Source of the DNA: a virus
DNA: 64,000 bases
IMG/VR virus record: IMGVR_UViG_3300013006_001433
Coordinates: 1-64,000 of that record
Direction: 5' to 3' (one strand)
Notes under the pieces: model-generated
Seen by the model: the letters and a program-made list of their open reading frames with translations, nothing else
Databases searched by the model: none
Told to the model about the DNA's origin: nothing
Shown here: piece after piece, positions 1,514 to 28,769 of the stretch
How positions within the stretch are numbered: position 1 is the stretch's first letter
Layout: each line of letters begins with the position of its first letter
Program-made: the position numbers and the translations under genes

Positions 1514-1899
1514 GGGCCCGTACTGGTTTCGATTTTAAGAAAATAAATTGAAATGCAGGTGGAGGTTGAATCGAGGACTCCTTAAAAAGTTTCAATTATA
1601 TTAACTGCCAAAACAGCAAAATATAAAGGTCATGTTTCAGCAAGAGTTTCTCTTGTTGAGATGGCCGAATCTGTAGCCTAAGTTACAGCGTGATATCCAC
1701 GATACATCTACTGGAATATTGCGTTATTAGATGTTTGAGTATTATAAGTTTTTTTATTCTTATAGTATTCAATATTCAAAATAAAATAGCTAAGTATGTT
1801 TGTTCTTTATCTATACAAGGCTAAAAATAAAAAGAACTAAACTTGTAGTGTTTTAATTTAGATTTTTAAAAGACAGAGGTTCAATTCCTCTCGGGTCCA
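1514..1899 (+). ncRNA. ssrA: tmRNA; tag ORF 1607-1681 reads AKTAKYKGHVSARVSLVEMAESVA*
   Basis: 5' GGGCCCG pairs with 3' CGGGTCC-A including the G3:U70 alanine identity pair; 5' CTGGTTTCGA; T-arm GAGG-TTCAATT-CCTC; pk1 GGAG/CTCC plus TTGAA/TTCAA; resume context TTAACT-GCC; CCA not encoded. Confidence 0.93.
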
Positions 1900-1930
1900 A
1901 GCAAACGAATCCCTGTGTCCGCATTTTTAC

Positions 1931-17214: not shown

Positions 17215-19476
17215 TTATAGCTTACACGCACCGCTAGAACAATCTCCATCTTCTTTTTGATCTAGGGATTGCTCTCTATCTCCATCGTCTGTATTATTAT
17301 AATAAAGGCTAATTAATCCAAGACTATATGCGTACATGATTTCTTTCATTACTTTAGCATCTGGTAATATATTGTTTTCATAATGACTATAGTTGTAGTA
17401 TACATTAGTTGATATAGCCATGTCAATATATTTTTGAATAACTGCATTAATTTTTAATATACCAGTATTATCTTTAAGATCATAAGCTAATTCGTAATTA
17501 TCATGATACTTACCAATCCCTGGAACCATAACTGGAAGTTTACCCATTTTGCTGGTTTTATAAGTGATAAGACTACGAATTGGTTCTACTCCATTTGTAG
17601 AGGATTGAATAACAGAACTACTTTCACAAGGCATGCATGAGGATAATGTTGAGTGTCTTAAACCATGTTCTTTAATTTGTTTTCTCAACTTTTCCCAATC
17701 AAGAGATAGTTTTCTTTTACATATTTCATCTACTTTATCTTTATAAGTATCAATTGGTAATACACCTTTAGAATATTTTGTATGATTGAATTTTTCACAT
17801 TTACCTTTTTCTTTAGCTAATTCTAGACTACTCTCTAAAAGATAGTATTGAAAATGCTCCATCCATTCATCAATAACTGATAACGATTTATCTGAGCTAT
17901 ATTTTAATTCATTTTTAGCGAGGAAAGCTGCTAGATTAGTGATTCCAATTCCAAGGCTTCTTCGTTTTTTAGCAAAATTTTCAGCAGCAACATTAAAGTA
18001 ATCTTGAAGTTCAATGATTTCATCAAGAAATCTTACGATAAGATCGCAAGTCTTTTCAAGATCTTGCCAGTTTTTTATTTCTAGCATATTTACTGCCGAA
18101 AGAATACACATTCCAATTTCCCCATTCTTGTCATTGTAATCGTTTAATGGAATAGTTGGATGGATAACTTCTGTGCAAAGATTACTCATTGTAACTTTAT
18201 CAGACCAAGCTCCATGCTCGTTAGCATGATCTACATTAAGAATATAAATGCGACCAGTTTCAACTCTTTCTTTAATTATCAAAGAGAATAATTTTCTAGC
18301 AGATACTTTCTTTTTTAGTTTTAATTTTTTAGATTCGCATTCTTTATATACTTTATCAAAGTCTCTAGTCCCCCAAGCTTCATAAAGTTCTGGAACTTCT
18401 GAATTATTGAATAATGTGACATCTTCATCTTTCAAAACTCTATCATAGAATAATTTACTCATACCAACTGTATAATCAAGCTTACGAACTCGATTGTCAT
18501 CTGTTCCAGCGTTATTCTTTAATACAACAATATCTTCAATTTCGTAATGCCACCATTGAATATTGCAAGTTGCACTGCCACCTCTTAAGCCATTTTGTTG
18601 CCAAGCTTTTACGCTACTCTCATATATTTTTAAAAATGGAATTAAACCAGTGTGTACAACTTCTCCGTTCTTAATGGGAGAACCAATCGCTCTAATTTTA
18701 CTTATATCAATACCAATTCCACATCTATTTGCTGTGGCCATACTTACAGCAGTTGCACTAGCTGTAATACTTTCTCTTGTATCGTCTACTCCAATCAAAC
18801 AGCAACTAGCATAATTTCTGCTAGAAGTTCTAACTCCAGCCATTACTGGCGTTGGAAGATTGATTTTGTGTTTACTTATAGCATCATAAAATTTTCTTAC
18901 ATAATTTAATCTTGAATCTGCTGGATATTTTGCAAAAGCATAAGACGCAATTAGTATATATGCAAATTGTGGAGTTTCATAAATTTGACCAGTGGTTCTA
19001 TTTTTAATTAAATATTTATCACAAAGCTGTTTAATTCCAGCATAAGTGAAAGTAAAATCTCTTTCATGATCAATAAATTCTCCAATTTTATTAATCTCAT
19101 CCTCAGAGTAATTCTCTAGAATAGAACCATCATATACTTTATTCTTTATTCCTTGATTTAAGAACTCTGATAGTCTCGGAGCATGCTTGCCCTTCCAAAC
19201 ATCTTTTCTTAATTGATAATTCAAAAGTCTCGCTGCGACAAATTGATAATTTGGTTTTTCAGTTGAAATCAAATTAGCAGCACTTTCAATCAATAGGTTG
19301 TGTATTTCTTTACTTGTTATACCATCATGTATGTTTATTTTCGCATTGATTTCTATATCTGTTAAACTTACCCCAGTATAACCATCAATTGCCCAGTTGA
19401 TTACTTTATTAATTTTTTCTACATCAAATTTTTCTGTTGCACCATTTCTTTTCTTTATAATAACATTCTTGCTCAT
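17215..19476 (-). CDS. nrdA: Ribonucleotide reductase class Ia alpha subunit with ATP cone
   Basis: KKRNG ATP cone, ASCCL, SNLCTEV, C-terminal CSSGACKL. Confidence 0.95.
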   Translation of the reverse strand: MSKNVIIKKRNGATEKFDVEKINKVINWAIDGYTGVSLTDIEINAKINIHDGITSKEIHNLLIESAANLISTEKPNYQFVAARLLNYQLRKDVWKGKHAPRLSEFLNQGIKNKVYDGSILENYSEDEINKIGEFIDHERDFTFTYAGIKQLCDKYLIKNRTTGQIYETPQFAYILIASYAFAKYPADSRLNYVRKFYDAISKHKINLPTPVMAGVRTSSRNYASCCLIGVDDTRESITASATAVSMATANRCGIGIDISKIRAIGSPIKNGEVVHTGLIPFLKIYESSVKAWQQNGLRGGSATCNIQWWHYEIEDIVVLKNNAGTDDNRVRKLDYTVGMSKLFYDRVLKDEDVTLFNNSEVPELYEAWGTRDFDKVYKECESKKLKLKKKVSARKLFSLIIKERVETGRIYILNVDHANEHGAWSDKVTMSNLCTEVIHPTIPLNDYNDKNGEIGMCILSAVNMLEIKNWQDLEKTCDLIVRFLDEIIELQDYFNVAAENFAKKRRSLGIGITNLAAFLAKNELKYSSDKSLSVIDEWMEHFQYYLLESSLELAKEKGKCEKFNHTKYSKGVLPIDTYKDKVDEICKRKLSLDWEKLRKQIKEHGLRHSTLSSCMPCESSSVIQSSTNGVEPIRSLITYKTSKMGKLPVMVPGIGKYHDNYELAYDLKDNTGILKINAVIQKYIDMAISTNVYYNYSHYENNILPDAKVMKEIMYAYSLGLISLYYNNTDDGDREQSLDQKEDGDCSSGACKL

Positions 19477-19609
19477 ATTTTCTTTCTAAGGTAAAGAATA
19501 GTTTACAGTGTTTTTAATTTTTATAAAAGAAAAATAACTAAACTAGTGTTAATAACTTTATATCGTACTAAACAAGTGTACTGATCTAATATCTTTTCTT
19601 AATAAATAT

Positions 19610-19895
19610 TTCCCAATGAGCTCCTTCAAAGCAGAGCTTTCCCTGTGTTTTACCACAAGTTCGCTTGAGCCGTTAGTTCAATTTCCCAATTGAGTCCATA
19701 AGCCTTTCGGCTCCCTAACACTTATCGGATGTCGGTAGGATCATCCATCGCGTGTTAGCCCTTTCACCTACACTCCCAGAATTTCTTCTGGTTTCTCAGG
19801 TCGCAAGCTCTGTTAGCGTTGCCTGACGTTAAGAACTAATCTAACTCACCATTTTAAGGAGTATGGCAAACCTTTTCGCCTTTCAGCGAGATGTC
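19610..19895 (-). ncRNA. Unassigned ~285 nt structured RNA
   Basis: GC-enriched intergenic island with four GNRA-capped hairpins and several 5-8 bp long-range pairings, directly below a sigma70 promoter; ends approximate. Confidence 0.7.
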
Positions 19896-19900
19896 GTAGT

Positions 19901-19929
19901 ATAATACATGAATCAATATATTTTGTCAA
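19901..19929 (-). promoter_or_regulatory. Sigma70-type promoter TTGACA-N17-TATTAT driving the structured RNA
   Basis: Consensus spacing; no start codon follows, unlike the other promoters in the window. Confidence 0.7.
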
Positions 19930-19945
19930 ATAAAAAAGTAAATAG

Positions 19946-19951
19946 GTGTAA
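19946..19951 (+). promoter_or_regulatory. GTGTAA putative late promoter
   Basis: 8 nt upstream of ATG 19960. Confidence 0.6.
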
Positions 19952-19959
19952 TAATATAC

Positions 19960-20223
19960 ATGCCGATACCAAATCCAAAAGACAAAGAAAAGCAAAACGA
20001 TTATATGGGTCGCTGTATGGAGTTTATGAAAGATGAAAAATATCCTCAAAAACAAAAAGTTGCTATTTGTTTGAATACTTTTCGTGGTCCACAAAAGAAA
20101 GCTAAGGGCGAAATTGAAATTGATTTCTCTGAACAAATCAAAAATCTGCATAAAAAAGAAGTAAAAATAGAAGAACCAACTCATACAGCTGTAACTGCAC
20201 CAGTAGAACAAACTAAAGCCTAA
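19960..20223 (+). CDS. Small phage protein (MPIP...RCM...YP...AIC type)
   Basis: 87 aa ORF with this motif and the late-type promoter. Confidence 0.6.
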   Translation: MPIPNPKDKEKQNDYMGRCMEFMKDEKYPQKQKVAICLNTFRGPQKKAKGEIEIDFSEQIKNLHKKEVKIEEPTHTAVTAPVEQTKA

Positions 20224-27972: not shown

Positions 27973-28769
27973 AAAATACAGCCTGCTTCTTCTACTCAGA
28001 CTCAGAAAAATATTCAAAATTACTAGAATGCGCAATGAACAGCTTTGAAAAATTTCATCCAGATATACCGATTATTCTATTAACAAGAAAAGACCCAAAT
28101 ATTTATCAAGCAGTAGATAAATTTCAGCAAGCATTAAATATATGTTTGTATAATAATTATGAAAAGGCAATTTTTCTTGGTGCGGATACTATAACATGCT
28201 CAAGGCTTGATGAGTTTCTAGAATCCGAAGAGGACATACTTGCCACGTTAGATTATCCTTATAGATTAGTTACAAAATATGTAGCAACTCCAGATGATCA
28301 AACACATGTCAACGCTGATGTATTATGTATTAATAATTTATCATTTATGTACAAACTTTGTGAGATAACCACGAAATGTCCAACAGAATATTGGGAACAA
28401 GGAGCACTCAATCAAATAATTTGGAATAGAATTAATAATTATTCTTGTAGAATAATAGATGCGCCGTATAATACATCAAAAATTATCTATAATACCAGAG
28501 CAAAAGGAAATATAATTGCGCAATCTGGAGAAAAGCCATGGCATAATTATACCCAGCATTGGAAAGTCTCGGATAATAAACTATACTCGCATGACAATAA
28601 ACAAATTAAAGTTTTTCATTATTGCGAAGGTCTTGGCACACTTAATAATGATAAATTTGAAGAGATAATAAATTACTGGATAGATACAGCTTTTAATAAA
28701 GAAAGCAAAGCATTTTTTGAAGAATATTGTAATTGCGGTGATTTTTTTAAAAAGCAATTCAAAATATGA
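27969..28769 (+). CDS. Glycosyltransferase (GT-A, GT8-like)
   Basis: SFEKFHPDIP, LGADT, NADV, EQGALN. Confidence 0.6.
   Translation: MKNTACFFYSDSEKYSKLLECAMNSFEKFHPDIPIILLTRKDPNIYQAVDKFQQALNICLYNNYEKAIFLGADTITCSRLDEFLESEEDILATLDYPYRLVTKYVATPDDQTHVNADVLCINNLSFMYKLCEITTKCPTEYWEQGALNQIIWNRINNYSCRIIDAPYNTSKIIYNTRAKGNIIAQSGEKPWHNYTQHWKVSDNKLYSHDNKQIKVFHYCEGLGTLNNDKFEEIINYWIDTAFNKESKAFFEEYCNCGDFFKKQFKI

What the first reader, a model, noticed from the sequence alone, without database searches (positions are those of the whole stretch)
19610..19929. Unassigned ~285 nt multi-pseudoknot RNA with its own promoter, upstream of nrdAB
Seen on the minus strand: four GNRA hairpins, TCGCT-GAAA-GGCGA (19876-89), CCAGAA-GAAA-TTCTGG (19776-91), AGCC-GAAA-GGCT (19701-12) and TCAATT-GGGA-AATTGA (19678-93), plus stem CTTGTG/CACAGG (19642-59). 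Long-range helices are CTCCTT/AAGGAG (19856-61 with 19621-26), TTAGTTC/GAACTAA and CTAACAC/GTGTTAG. Two loop-mediated pseudoknots are CAGAGCTT (19805-12) with AAGCTCTG (19632-39) and CCTAC with GTAGG. The island is GC-rich against the background and starts at the only sigma70 promoter here with no start codon. Fragments recall RNase P (GGAAAGCTCTG/AACAGAGCTT as a P4-like helix, GGTGAAAGGG, GGTAAA), but in permuted order and without the bulged U. Inference: a new large ncRNA or ribozyme class, or a complex nrdAB leader.
Basis: partly seen in the sequence, partly recalled or inferred. Interest (0 to 1): 0.88.

Follow-up and report, generated by a model that had tools for sequence, protein, structure and literature searches.

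The report
Stand-alone knotted twin-box phage RNA
This is a real gene for a roughly 290-base, doubly knotted RNA with its own promoter. Nearly every member of a group of uncultured, AT-rich lake phages carries it, it matches no catalogued RNA family, it is not a control element of the neighbouring nrdAB genes, and two 17-20-base boxes in it always mutate together, which points to a mechanism that has not been tested.

Summary
The RNA is real. The sigma70 promoter, the GC island, nine nested helices and both pseudoknots are conserved across five divergent types. On 48 sequences 96.8% of cells pair, and 43 of 50 pairs change on both sides. The RNase P resemblance has no support, with no Rfam hit at E<=10. 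It is not an nrdAB leader. In most relatives the gene lies on the opposite strand downstream of nrdB, divergent from a phage tmRNA gene. In one relative it lies 9.5 kb from nrdA. In another a glycosyltransferase gene separates it from nrdA. There is one copy per genome, in about 90 IMG/VR contigs, and none was found in bacterial genomes. The striking feature is two boxes, GGA-YUYA-10mer, 65-75 nt apart. They stay identical to each other while the sequence drifts (23 of 23 distinct rows, eight 10-mer versions), and no complement exists elsewhere in six phage genomes. My best guess, at about 0.3, is an origin-associated transcript in which box 1 captures the template DNA of box 2, as in ColE1 RNA II. 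The gene sits at the GC-skew minimum and is followed by one of the most AT-rich stretches of the genome. This scan found the same family on three other genomes; I reached the same core conclusions independently.

The parts
19901..19929 (-). Sigma70-type promoter: TTGACA, 17 nt, TATTAT. The predicted start is near 19894-19897, at the conserved 5' ACAU.
   Evidence: 11 of 12 match. A TTGACA/TAnnnT promoter is kept at the same distance in all five types.
19608..19897 (-). The RNA gene itself, about 290 nt, from the predicted start to the end of box 2. The true 3' end is unknown.
   Evidence: Covariance model R1 matches 19595-19900 at 328.8 bits. Conservation stops about 2 nt after box 2.
19876..19889 (-). 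H1, the 5'-terminal hairpin UCGCU-GAAA-GGCGA. In most relatives the loop is CCAAUUA-like.
   Evidence: Compensatory changes are visible across types. MAFFT misaligned this hairpin, so it is not part of the counted structure.
19848..19867 (-). H2 hairpin GCCAU/AUGGU with an A-rich loop.
   Evidence: All 5 pairs change on both sides and 100% of cells pair (helix 1).
19833..19847 (-). P3 5' strand (GAGUU...UUAGUUC). It pairs with 19667-19679 and closes the core domain.
   Evidence: 12 of 12 pairs change on both sides and 98-99% of cells pair (helices 2 and 3).
19796..19826 (-). P4 hairpin: UCAGG/CCUGA, a conserved CAA/A internal loop, and CGC/GCG. Its loop carries the 5' strand of PK1, CAGAGCUU (19805-19812).
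19776..19791 (-). P5 hairpin CCAGAA-GAAA-UUCUGG. It is much longer in types B, D and E.
   Evidence: helix 6: 5 of 6 pairs change on both sides.
19767..19771 (-). PK2 5' strand, GUAGG. It pairs with CCUAC at 19735-19739 in the P7 loop.
   Evidence: Five covarying versions.
19715..19758 (-). P6 (CUAACAC/GUGUUAG) enclosing P7 (UGGAUG/CAUCCG). The P7 loop holds the 3' strand of PK2.
   Evidence: helices 7 and 9.
19701..19712 (-). P8 hairpin AGCC-GAAA-GGCU.
   Evidence: The loop is GCAA in type C. Types B, D and E have a long hairpin with compensatory changes here.
19681..19697 (-). Twin box 1 (R1), GGA-CUCA-A-UUGGGAAAU. It is unpaired and lies in the junction between P8 and the 3' strand of P3.
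19667..19679 (-). P3 3' strand (GAACUAA...GGCUC).
19642..19659 (-). P9, a variable hairpin CUUGUG/CACAGG, followed by the conserved GGRAAA.
   Evidence: helix 11.
19632..19639 (-). PK1 3' strand, AAGCUCUG.
   Evidence: 14 distinct fully complementary versions among 48 sequences.
19608..19624 (-). Twin box 2 (R2), GGA-G-CUCA-UUGGGAAAU, at the 3' end of the conserved RNA.
19477..19607 (-). AT-rich spacer (18% GC in the 100 nt after box 2) between the RNA and the nrdA ATG. It holds conserved operator-like motifs and a TG-extended -10-like TGTAAACT, which belong to nrdA and not to the RNA.
   Evidence: lowest 2.5% of 100-nt windows. The motifs are also present upstream of nrdA in phages whose RNA lies elsewhere.

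Best explanation
Identity (about 0.95). This is a stand-alone, single-copy gene for a compact RNA of about 290-330 nt. Host-type RNA polymerase transcribes it from its own sigma70 promoter. The fold has two 5' hairpins and a core closed by the long-range helix P3. The core contains P4, P5, P6/P7 and P8. The RNA ends in a 3' tail that holds P9. Two pseudoknots lock the fold: the P4 loop pairs with the 3' tail, and junction J5/6 pairs with the P7 loop.

Mechanism (inferred, about 0.3). The RNA is the transcript of the phage's replication-origin region. It acts through its two identical purine-rich boxes. Box 1 is held single-stranded on the folded body. It has the same sequence as box 2, so it can pair with the template DNA strand of box 2 just behind the transcribing polymerase. 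This would tether the folded RNA to the DNA and hold open the very AT-rich stretch that follows. The result would be a persistent R-loop that opens the origin and/or supplies a primer, as in ColE1 RNA II or the T4 oriF/oriG transcripts. This need would explain why the two boxes must remain identical to each other although no third complementary sequence exists.
For: Shown for identity.
- Structure and both pseudoknots are supported by covariation.
- The promoter is conserved.
- There is one copy per genome.
- The position relative to nrdAB is variable.
- There is no Rfam match.

Shown for the boxes.
- The 10-mer is identical in 23 of 23 distinct rows, with 6 variable columns and 8 versions.
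- The RGA part is identical in 22 of 23 rows.
- In six phage genomes of 78-136 kb, the only sequence complementary to a box is the DNA strand opposite the boxes themselves.
- Both boxes are unpaired in the consensus fold.

Circumstantial for an origin.
- The interior minimum of cumulative G-C skew falls within 1 kb of the gene in four of six genomes (G0, G1, G4, G7) that differ in local gene order, and within 4-5 kb in the other two.
- The gene sits at a divergent gene junction in five of six genomes.
- The 100 nt after box 2 have 11-18% GC, the lowest 0.2-2.5% of all windows, in five of six genomes.
- No terminator follows the RNA in the window.
- The boxes are purine-rich. From general knowledge, a purine-rich RNA on a pyrimidine-rich DNA strand forms the most stable class of hybrid.
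- The ColE1 RNA II mechanism is described in PMC5043065. That an upstream G-rich RNA II segment pairs with downstream C-rich template DNA (Masukata and Tomizawa 1990) is from my own memory and was not checked here.
Against: - The skew minimum and the divergent junction both follow transcription direction, so they do not identify an origin on their own, and the six genomes are related to each other.
- In type E (G8), and in the common arrangement of types D and E, the RNA points into the convergent nrdAB genes.
- In L063 the gene is not at a divergent junction.
- AT-rich spacers are usual between genes in these genomes.
- A simple R-loop primer would not need a fold this elaborate and this conserved.
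- The middle YUYA block is shifted by one base between the boxes in all five types. A box 1 hybrid on box 2 DNA would therefore carry two bulges, where perfect identity would be expected.
- No RNase HI family hit was found in five phage records, so the host enzyme would be needed.
- There is no transcript evidence.
Confidence: 0.3

Rival explanations
1. The RNA is a scaffold or decoy. The twin boxes are two equivalent binding sites for one partner, and the knotted body presents them at a fixed geometry. The partner could be a dimeric or two-site phage or host RNA-binding protein, or a host RNA carrying the complementary sequence. The boxes drift together because both must fit the same partner, as the nutL and nutR sites of lambdoid phages track their own N proteins.
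For: The boxes are bipartite: a GGA part, a 4-nt middle and a 10-13-nt part. The distance from GGA to the 10-mer is fixed, but the middle block is shifted by one base. That fits recognition at two subsites better than a perfect duplex does. Both boxes are single-stranded in the consensus fold. The gene lies beside the phage tmRNA gene in 43 of 61 type B/D/E contigs, as expected for a stable, abundantly expressed RNA. The GGA plus A-rich sequence resembles a ribosome-binding region or a CsrA-type site; this is my own observation and was not tested.
Against: No complementary RNA target exists in six phage genomes. No protein gene is consistently adjacent: the 87-aa ORF next to it in the window has a detectable homologue in only a minority of the RNA-bearing loci and lies at varying distances from the RNA. 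Single-base changes that appear in both boxes of close relatives (L061, L070, L114) would need three-way co-evolution with a protein. A host target cannot be examined because the host is unknown.
Confidence: 0.3
2. The RNA is a template for a polymerase that jumps between the boxes. The roughly 70-nt unit between the identical boxes is copied repeatedly: a nascent strand ending in the complement of one box re-anneals at the other. This would resemble telomerase templates or the rolling-circle reverse transcription of DRT2 defence RNAs.
For: Identity of two direct repeats without any third complementary sequence is what template jumping requires. The pseudoknotted body resembles the scaffolds of such RNAs; that resemblance is from general knowledge.
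Against: No reverse transcriptase family hit was found in the window's own record or in four further records that are 77-87% complete. The repeat period varies from 65 to 75 nt and is not a multiple of 3. The one-base shift of the middle block has not been homogenised, which argues against physical copying of one box from the other.
Confidence: 0.08
3. The RNA is a ribozyme or processing RNA. One version is self-cleavage or ligation at the two boxes, releasing a roughly 70-nt piece. The other is an RNase P-like activity on the neighbouring pre-tmRNA.
For: The RNA has a compact double-pseudoknot core with invariant junction nucleotides. It is adjacent to tmRNA in most of the clade. The GGRAAAG-helix motif follows a variable hairpin, which recalls P3-J3/4-P4 of RNase P. 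In G005 the H1 loop is complementary over 10 nt to the leader/mature junction of pre-tmRNA.
Against: RF00010 and RF00011 give no hit, even at E<=10. The order of the strands is incompatible with RNase P or with any circular permutation of it. The complementarity between H1 and pre-tmRNA falls to 4-6 bp in other genomes and is absent in the window, where the loop is GAAA. No internal guide complementary to the boxes exists. No known self-cleaving motif was hit.
Confidence: 0.1
4. The RNA is a cis-acting leader or riboswitch of nrdAB, for example one that senses a nucleotide or cobalamin.
For: In the window and in types A and B, the RNA lies 130 nt upstream of nrdA on the same strand with no terminator between them.
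Against: In 28 of 61 type B/D/E contigs it is convergent with nrdAB. In G001 it lies 9.5 kb away. In L063 a glycosyltransferase gene follows it. The nrdA gene keeps its own operator-like motifs and a -10-like element even where the RNA lies elsewhere. No riboswitch family was hit. No expression platform could be identified.
Confidence: 0.03

Closest known systems
ColE1 RNA II (plasmid replication primer) and the R-loop transcripts of T4 oriF/oriG
   Same: Like these, it is a non-coding transcript made by host-type RNA polymerase from its own promoter, it is folded, and no terminator was found in the window. Its proposed action on its own template DNA would explain why two sense-identical purine-rich segments are needed. 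It lies at a skew minimum and is followed by a very AT-rich stretch (PMC5043065).
   Different: There is no sequence or structural homology. RNA II is about 550 nt, lacks this double-pseudoknot core and is controlled by the antisense RNA I, and no antisense promoter was seen here. Origin function is not shown, and the boxes carry a one-base register shift.
Ornate phage-associated RNAs of unknown function (ROOL, GOLLD, raiA, OLE)
   Same: Like these, it is a large, highly conserved non-coding RNA rich in pseudoknots, encoded by phages, located near tRNA or tmRNA genes, and of unknown function.
   Different: None of these Rfam families matches any of the five types, even at E<=1 to 10. It is smaller, at about 290-330 nt. 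As far as I know, co-varying identical boxes have not been described for them.
Bacterial RNase P RNA (types A and B)
   Same: A GGRAAAG-plus-helix motif follows a variable hairpin, and this helix is formed by long-range pairing. The GGUGNAAGG motif recalls J11/12 of RNase P.
   Different: There is no covariance-model match. The 3'-type strand of the P4-like helix sits in a hairpin loop near the 5' end, an order that no circular permutation of RNase P gives. There is no bulged U. No P1-P2-P3, P15 or specificity-domain architecture is present.
Paired protein-binding RNA sites that co-evolve with a phage protein (lambdoid nutL/nutR boxB with N)
   Same: In both cases two copies of one RNA motif stay alike within a phage but differ between related phages.
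   Different: The nut sites are hairpins in two separate operons. Here the boxes are single-stranded, 65-75 nt apart within one folded RNA, and no partner protein is known.
DRT2-type and telomerase-type template RNAs
   Same: In both cases short direct repeats bound a template unit inside a structured RNA.
   Different: No reverse transcriptase was found in five phage records. The unit length is variable.

Membership tests
Bacterial RNase P RNA (RF00010, RF00011) | A match to the family covariance model at or near the gathering score. | tested here: not met
   There was no hit at gathering score in the window. No hit appeared at E<=10 in 19400-20100. The whole 78-kb record gave none.
Bacterial RNase P RNA (RF00010, RF00011) | The P4 helix is formed by a 5' strand that follows P3 and a 3' strand near the 3' end, and it carries a bulged U. 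| tested here: not met
   The order of the strands is reversed: the ACAGAGCUU-type strand lies in the P4 hairpin loop at 19805-19812, and the GGAAAGCUCUG-type strand lies near the 3' end at 19632-19642. The helix is a continuous 8 bp with no bulge.
Bacterial RNase P RNA (RF00010, RF00011) | Pre-tRNA or pre-tmRNA 5' cleavage activity. | not testable with these tools
   This needs an in vitro assay.
Riboswitch or leader of nrd genes (cobalamin RF00174, 2'-dG and others) | A fixed position in the 5' UTR of the regulated gene, with an expression platform. | tested here: not met
   The gene is found convergent with nrdAB, 9.5 kb from nrdA, or in front of a glycosyltransferase gene. No terminator or RBS-sequestering helix is present.
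Riboswitch or leader of nrd genes (cobalamin RF00174, 2'-dG and others) | A match to a known aptamer model. | tested here: not met
Group I intron (RF00028) | It interrupts a gene, and it matches the intron model. | tested here: not met
   NrdA is complete from its ATP-cone N-terminus at 19476. No Rfam hit was found.
ROOL, GOLLD, raiA, OLE, HEARO and other catalogued large RNAs (Rfam 15) | A match to the family covariance model. | tested here: not met
   Only tmRNA is found, in the window and in loci of types B-E.
Primer or R-loop origin transcript (ColE1 RNA II type). I claim a likeness of function, not family membership. | It lies at the replication origin. | tested here: inconclusive
   The gene lies within 1 kb of the cumulative-skew minimum in 4 of 6 genomes and within 5 kb in 6 of 6. 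It is at a divergent junction in 5 of 6. Both observations are confounded with transcription direction.
Primer or R-loop origin transcript (ColE1 RNA II type). I claim a likeness of function, not family membership. | It forms a persistent RNA-DNA hybrid that is processed to a primer. | not testable with these tools
   This needs in vitro transcription and replication assays or R-loop mapping. No phage RNase HI was found.

The most novel reading that the evidence does not exclude
This is a new class of structured RNA whose function depends on two segments being identical to each other, not complementary. The folded RNA would use one copy to seize the DNA template of the other copy. It would thereby act as a self-targeting R-loop clamp that fires a phage replication origin, or an equally unprecedented mechanism that requires sequence identity.
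Probability: 0.3. Interest if true: 0.9.

Novelty: categorically new. Interest (0 to 1): 0.8.

Why it matters
Large, strongly conserved RNAs without an assigned function are rare. In the past such RNAs have turned out to be ribozymes, riboswitches or parts of unexpected machinery.

This RNA has one of the cleanest covariation records one could ask for: 43 of 50 nested pairs plus two pseudoknots, across five divergent types. It is nearly universal in an abundant group of lake phages.

It also carries a signature I cannot place in any described RNA class. Two boxes are under selection to be the same as each other. Selection for identity instead of complementarity narrows the possible mechanisms: capture of self DNA, template jumping, or a shared partner. 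Each of these can be tested with simple compensatory mutants.

If the origin reading is right, it would be a new way for a large phage to open its origin. It would also give a marker for origins in uncultured phage genomes.

Tried and rejected
1. Known families. Rfam was run at gathering score on the whole window. It was also run at E<=10 on the locus and at E<=1 on loci of types B-E. Only tmRNA was found.

2. Cultured phages. blastn against 50,697 phage records found nothing. The closest cultured NrdA proteins are those of Pelagibacter myophages, at 52% identity. HTVC008M has no large spacer near nrdA and no model hit.

3. Bacterial genomes. A pattern scan of genome contigs gave 54 hits, and none was confirmed by nhmmer.

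4. Transcript evidence. Only assembled contigs of two lake metatranscriptomes could be laid on the window. They cover the 87-aa ORF (19976-20213) and a piece of nrdA. None covers the RNA. This is no evidence either way.

5. A third, complementary segment for the boxes. RNAduplex of box 2 against each RNA and its flanks found no site that is conserved in position.
- The H1 loop CCCAAUU is complementary to AAUUGGG in type A only, and it does not follow the U>C change in L061.
- The H2 loop fits only in the L028 group.
- The U-rich UUUUCUUUU upstream of nrdA is complementary to AAAAGAAAA, but it lies outside any shared transcript in types D and E and could occur by chance in AT-rich DNA.
- Phage tRNAs and tmRNA offer no conserved complement.

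6. The 10-nt complementarity between H1 and the pre-tmRNA leader in G005 is not conserved.

7. Iterons. Only two box copies exist per genome.

8. Reverse transcriptase and RNase HI genes were not found.

9. A partner protein encoded next to the gene. tblastn detects a homologue of the 87-aa ORF in only a minority of the RNA-bearing loci, and where it is found its distance from the RNA varies.

10. Literature. No paper prints the conserved sequences. The IMG/VR catalogue of about 8,500 candidate RNAs (PMC10690425) lists motifs of 29-151 nt. Its supplements are not held here, so I cannot exclude that a fragment of this RNA is among them.

11. The genome search missed the copy in G005 that cmsearch then found. 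Its negative results are therefore weak. G002, a 157-kb record with NrdA at 78% identity, had no hit when it was fully scanned with cmsearch.

12. The single metagenome-contig scan was not used.

Full report
**What is there.** The window comes from a 78-kb IMG/VR virus record that is about half complete and has about 29% GC. On the minus strand at 19929-19901 lies a near-consensus sigma70 promoter, TTGACA, 17 nt, TATTAT. An island of 44-47% GC follows it. This island folds better than all 100 shuffles (z = -3.4). The nrdA gene starts at 19476 with an intact ATP-cone N-terminus, so the element is not an intron of nrdA. Rfam 15 finds only a phage tmRNA at 1514-1900 in the whole window. It finds nothing at the locus even at E<=10, and the RNase P models find nothing in the whole record.

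**Relatives and structure.**
- NrdA retrieved 80 related IMG/VR loci, and blastn found the RNA in 19 of them.
- The alignment of 17 distinct type-A sequences shows the promoter hexamers conserved. It has indels of one or two bases among close relatives, so the region is not coding, and it has many compensatory changes.
- On this alignment, a structure of ten nested helices plus two pseudoknots pairs in 98.8% of cells. 22 pairs change on both sides, against 11.5 +/- 2 in shuffles (0 of 500 shuffles reach this), and sliding the partners gives only 1-2 such pairs.
- A covariance model built from the alignment found 26 further, much more divergent members, scoring 44-67 bits with E from 1e-11 to 1e-18. 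I group these as types B, C, D and E.
- Over all 48 sequences, 96.8% of cells pair and 43 of 50 pairs change on both sides. The covariation score is 0.646, against 0.232 for shuffles and at most 0.106 for slid partners. That alignment was fitted to the model, which inflates the figures somewhat.
- The pseudoknots were checked separately and without the model. The P4 loop and the 3' tail form 14 different fully complementary 6-10-bp versions. The J5/6 strand and the P7 loop covary through five versions.
- Its UCAAUU-GGGA-AAUUGA hairpin and its CUCCUU/AAGGAG helix do no better than shuffled columns.

**It is not an nrdAB leader.**
- In types D and E the gene lies downstream of nrdB on the opposite strand.
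- In G001 it lies 9.5 kb upstream of nrdA.
- In L063 a 371-aa glycosyltransferase-like ORF starts 35 nt after the RNA and precedes nrdA.
- An exact-pattern scan for the type B/D/E twin boxes found 61 IMG/VR contigs. In 43 of them a tmRNA gene lies just upstream and divergent, about 270 nt away, with a roughly 68-aa ORF in between in the one locus I read (L219). In 28 of them nrdA is downstream and convergent.
- With about 30 type-A contigs and one type C, the family is present in about 90 contigs.
- Every genome in which the RNA was found has a single copy.
- It was not detected in a more distant 157-kb relative, in Pelagibacter phage HTVC008M or in bacterial genomes.
- The motifs between the RNA and nrdA in the window are also present upstream of nrdA in phages whose RNA lies elsewhere. 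These are a GUACACU... palindrome-like box, a GTTAnTAAC-type palindrome, a T-rich tract and a TG-extended -10-like TGTAAACT. They therefore belong to nrdA.

**The twin boxes.** Box 1 (19681-19697) lies in the junction before the 3' strand of P3. Box 2 (19608-19624) ends the conserved RNA. Conservation stops within two bases after box 2.
- The boxes are 65-75 nt apart.
- Among 23 distinct (box 1, box 2) rows, the 10-mer is identical in all 23. Six of its ten columns vary, and eight versions exist, from AUUGGGAAGU to AAAGAAAAGU and AGGGAAAAAG.
- The GGA part varies together too (GGA, AGA and GAA occur in both boxes; 22 of 23 rows).
- The four bases in between are never identical, because a conserved YUYA block is shifted by one base. 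Box 1 reads GGA-CUCA-A-X and box 2 reads GGA-N-CUCA-X, in all five types.
- Selection therefore keeps the boxes alike base by base. Copying one box from the other would have erased the shift.
- No complementary segment that is conserved in position exists in the RNA or its flanks.
- In six phage genomes no other copy or complement of a box exists, apart from the DNA strand opposite the boxes.

**What it might do.** Identity without a complementary third sequence leaves few mechanisms.

(a) One box pairs with the template DNA of the other. This is how an upstream segment of ColE1 RNA II is said to capture downstream template DNA to make the persistent hybrid that primes replication. The general mechanism is in PMC5043065. 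The detail about the upstream segment is from my memory.
- In favour: the interior minimum of cumulative G-C skew lies within 1 kb of the gene in four of six genomes with different gene orders, and within 5 kb in all six.
- In favour: the gene is at a divergent junction in five of six.
- In favour: the 100 nt after box 2 are among the most AT-rich 0.2-2.5% of windows in five of six.
- In favour: the boxes are purine-rich. The type B/D/E box begins with the same AAAAGAAAAG as the HIV-1 polypurine tract as I remember it; this is a lead and not a test.
- Against: skew follows transcription direction, the genomes are relatives, the one-base shift would put bulges in the hybrid, the elaborate fold is not explained, and no phage RNase HI was found.

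(b) Both boxes bind one partner, either a two-site protein or a host RNA. The fixed spacing with a shifted middle fits this well, but no partner can be named.

(c) Template jumping by a polymerase. No reverse transcriptase is encoded in five records, and the unit length varies.

(d) A ribozyme, possibly acting on the neighbouring tmRNA precursor. Nothing supports this beyond the adjacency and a non-conserved 10-nt complementarity in one genome.

I put (a) and (b) at about 0.3 each.

**Expression.** Only assembled contigs of two lake metatranscriptomes could be laid on the window. They cover the neighbouring 87-aa ORF and part of nrdA but not the RNA. This says nothing either way.

**Earlier reports of this scan.** After I had reached the conclusions on stand-alone status and the twin boxes, a look-up showed that the same family had been reported on three other genomes. 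Those reports gave the same core reading and named ColE1 RNA II, telomerase-like templates and ornate phage RNAs as the closest known things. This report adds the following:
- the five-type model alignment with the pseudoknot covariation;
- the bipartite anatomy of the boxes and their register shift;
- the tmRNA adjacency as the commonest arrangement;
- the skew-minimum and AT-tract measurements in six genomes;
- the negative searches for reverse transcriptase, RNase HI and box complements.

**Verdict.** This is a genuine, apparently uncatalogued RNA class of high interest. The function is open, and the candidate mechanisms are specific and testable.

Noticed in passing
window 1514-1900 (+); G001 94725-95112; L219 1661-2049; L027 7876-8259: The phage encodes its own one-piece tmRNA, scoring 106 bits against Rfam, with an unusual 24-residue tag, AKTAKYKGHVSARVSLVEMAESVA. 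In 43 of 61 type B/D/E contigs it is the divergent neighbour of the twin-box RNA, about 270 nt away. In the window it lies 18 kb away.
   Followed up: partly
window 19477-19600 (-): Conserved motifs lie between the RNA and the nrdA ATG. They are GUACACUUGUUUAGUAC and AACACUAGUUUAGUUA about 31 nt apart (NrdR-box-like), a GTTATTAAC palindrome, a T-rich tract TTTTTCTTTT, and a TG-extended -10-like TGTAAACT about 35 nt before the ATG. Similar motifs stand upstream of nrdA in phages whose RNA lies elsewhere, so nrdAB probably has its own regulated promoter.
   Followed up: partly
window 19960-20223 (+): A lysine-rich 87-aa ORF (MPIPNPKDKEKQ...) diverges from the RNA promoter. Contigs of two lake metatranscriptomes cover it, one of them at 100% identity over 19976-20213. 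Homologues occur in only some related loci and at varying distances from the RNA.
   Followed up: partly
window ~19900-20000, and the whole window: Cumulative GC skew has its interior minimum at about 20 kb and its maximum at about 46-48 kb. The same coincidence of the skew minimum with the RNA gene is seen in G001, G004 and G007.
   Followed up: yes
G001 111378-111465 (+); G004 28171-28260 (-): ARAGORN calls a long-arm tRNA-Ser with the unusual anticodon ACU in two related phage genomes, next to tRNA-Asn(GUU) in G001. Most twin boxes end in AGU and some end in AAU. This is probably a coincidence.
   Followed up: no
L219 1350-1359 and 1654-1663: In G005 the H1 loop of the RNA (CCCAAUUAGA) is perfectly complementary over 10 nt to the leader/mature junction of the neighbouring pre-tmRNA (UCUAAUU|GGG). 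Only 4-6 bp remain in other genomes, and none in the window.
   Followed up: yes
L063 1790-2905: A 371-aa ORF that looks like a family-25 glycosyltransferase (my own reading of the sequence, not run against Pfam) is inserted between the RNA and nrdA. It starts 35 nt after box 2. A second ORF that also looks like a glycosyltransferase precedes the RNA on the same strand.
   Followed up: partly
L219 1424-1630 (+): A roughly 68-aa cysteine-containing ORF (MEIIKNKARWSVYSKKC...) sits between the RNA promoter and the tmRNA promoter in type D phages. The same MEIIK/MELIK start is seen in type E.
   Followed up: no
G005 (record of L062): the genome search with the RNA model reported no match in this record. 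cmsearch on the fetched stretch then found a 62.7-bit copy. Negative results from the first-look filter are therefore unreliable for this divergent family.
   Followed up: yes
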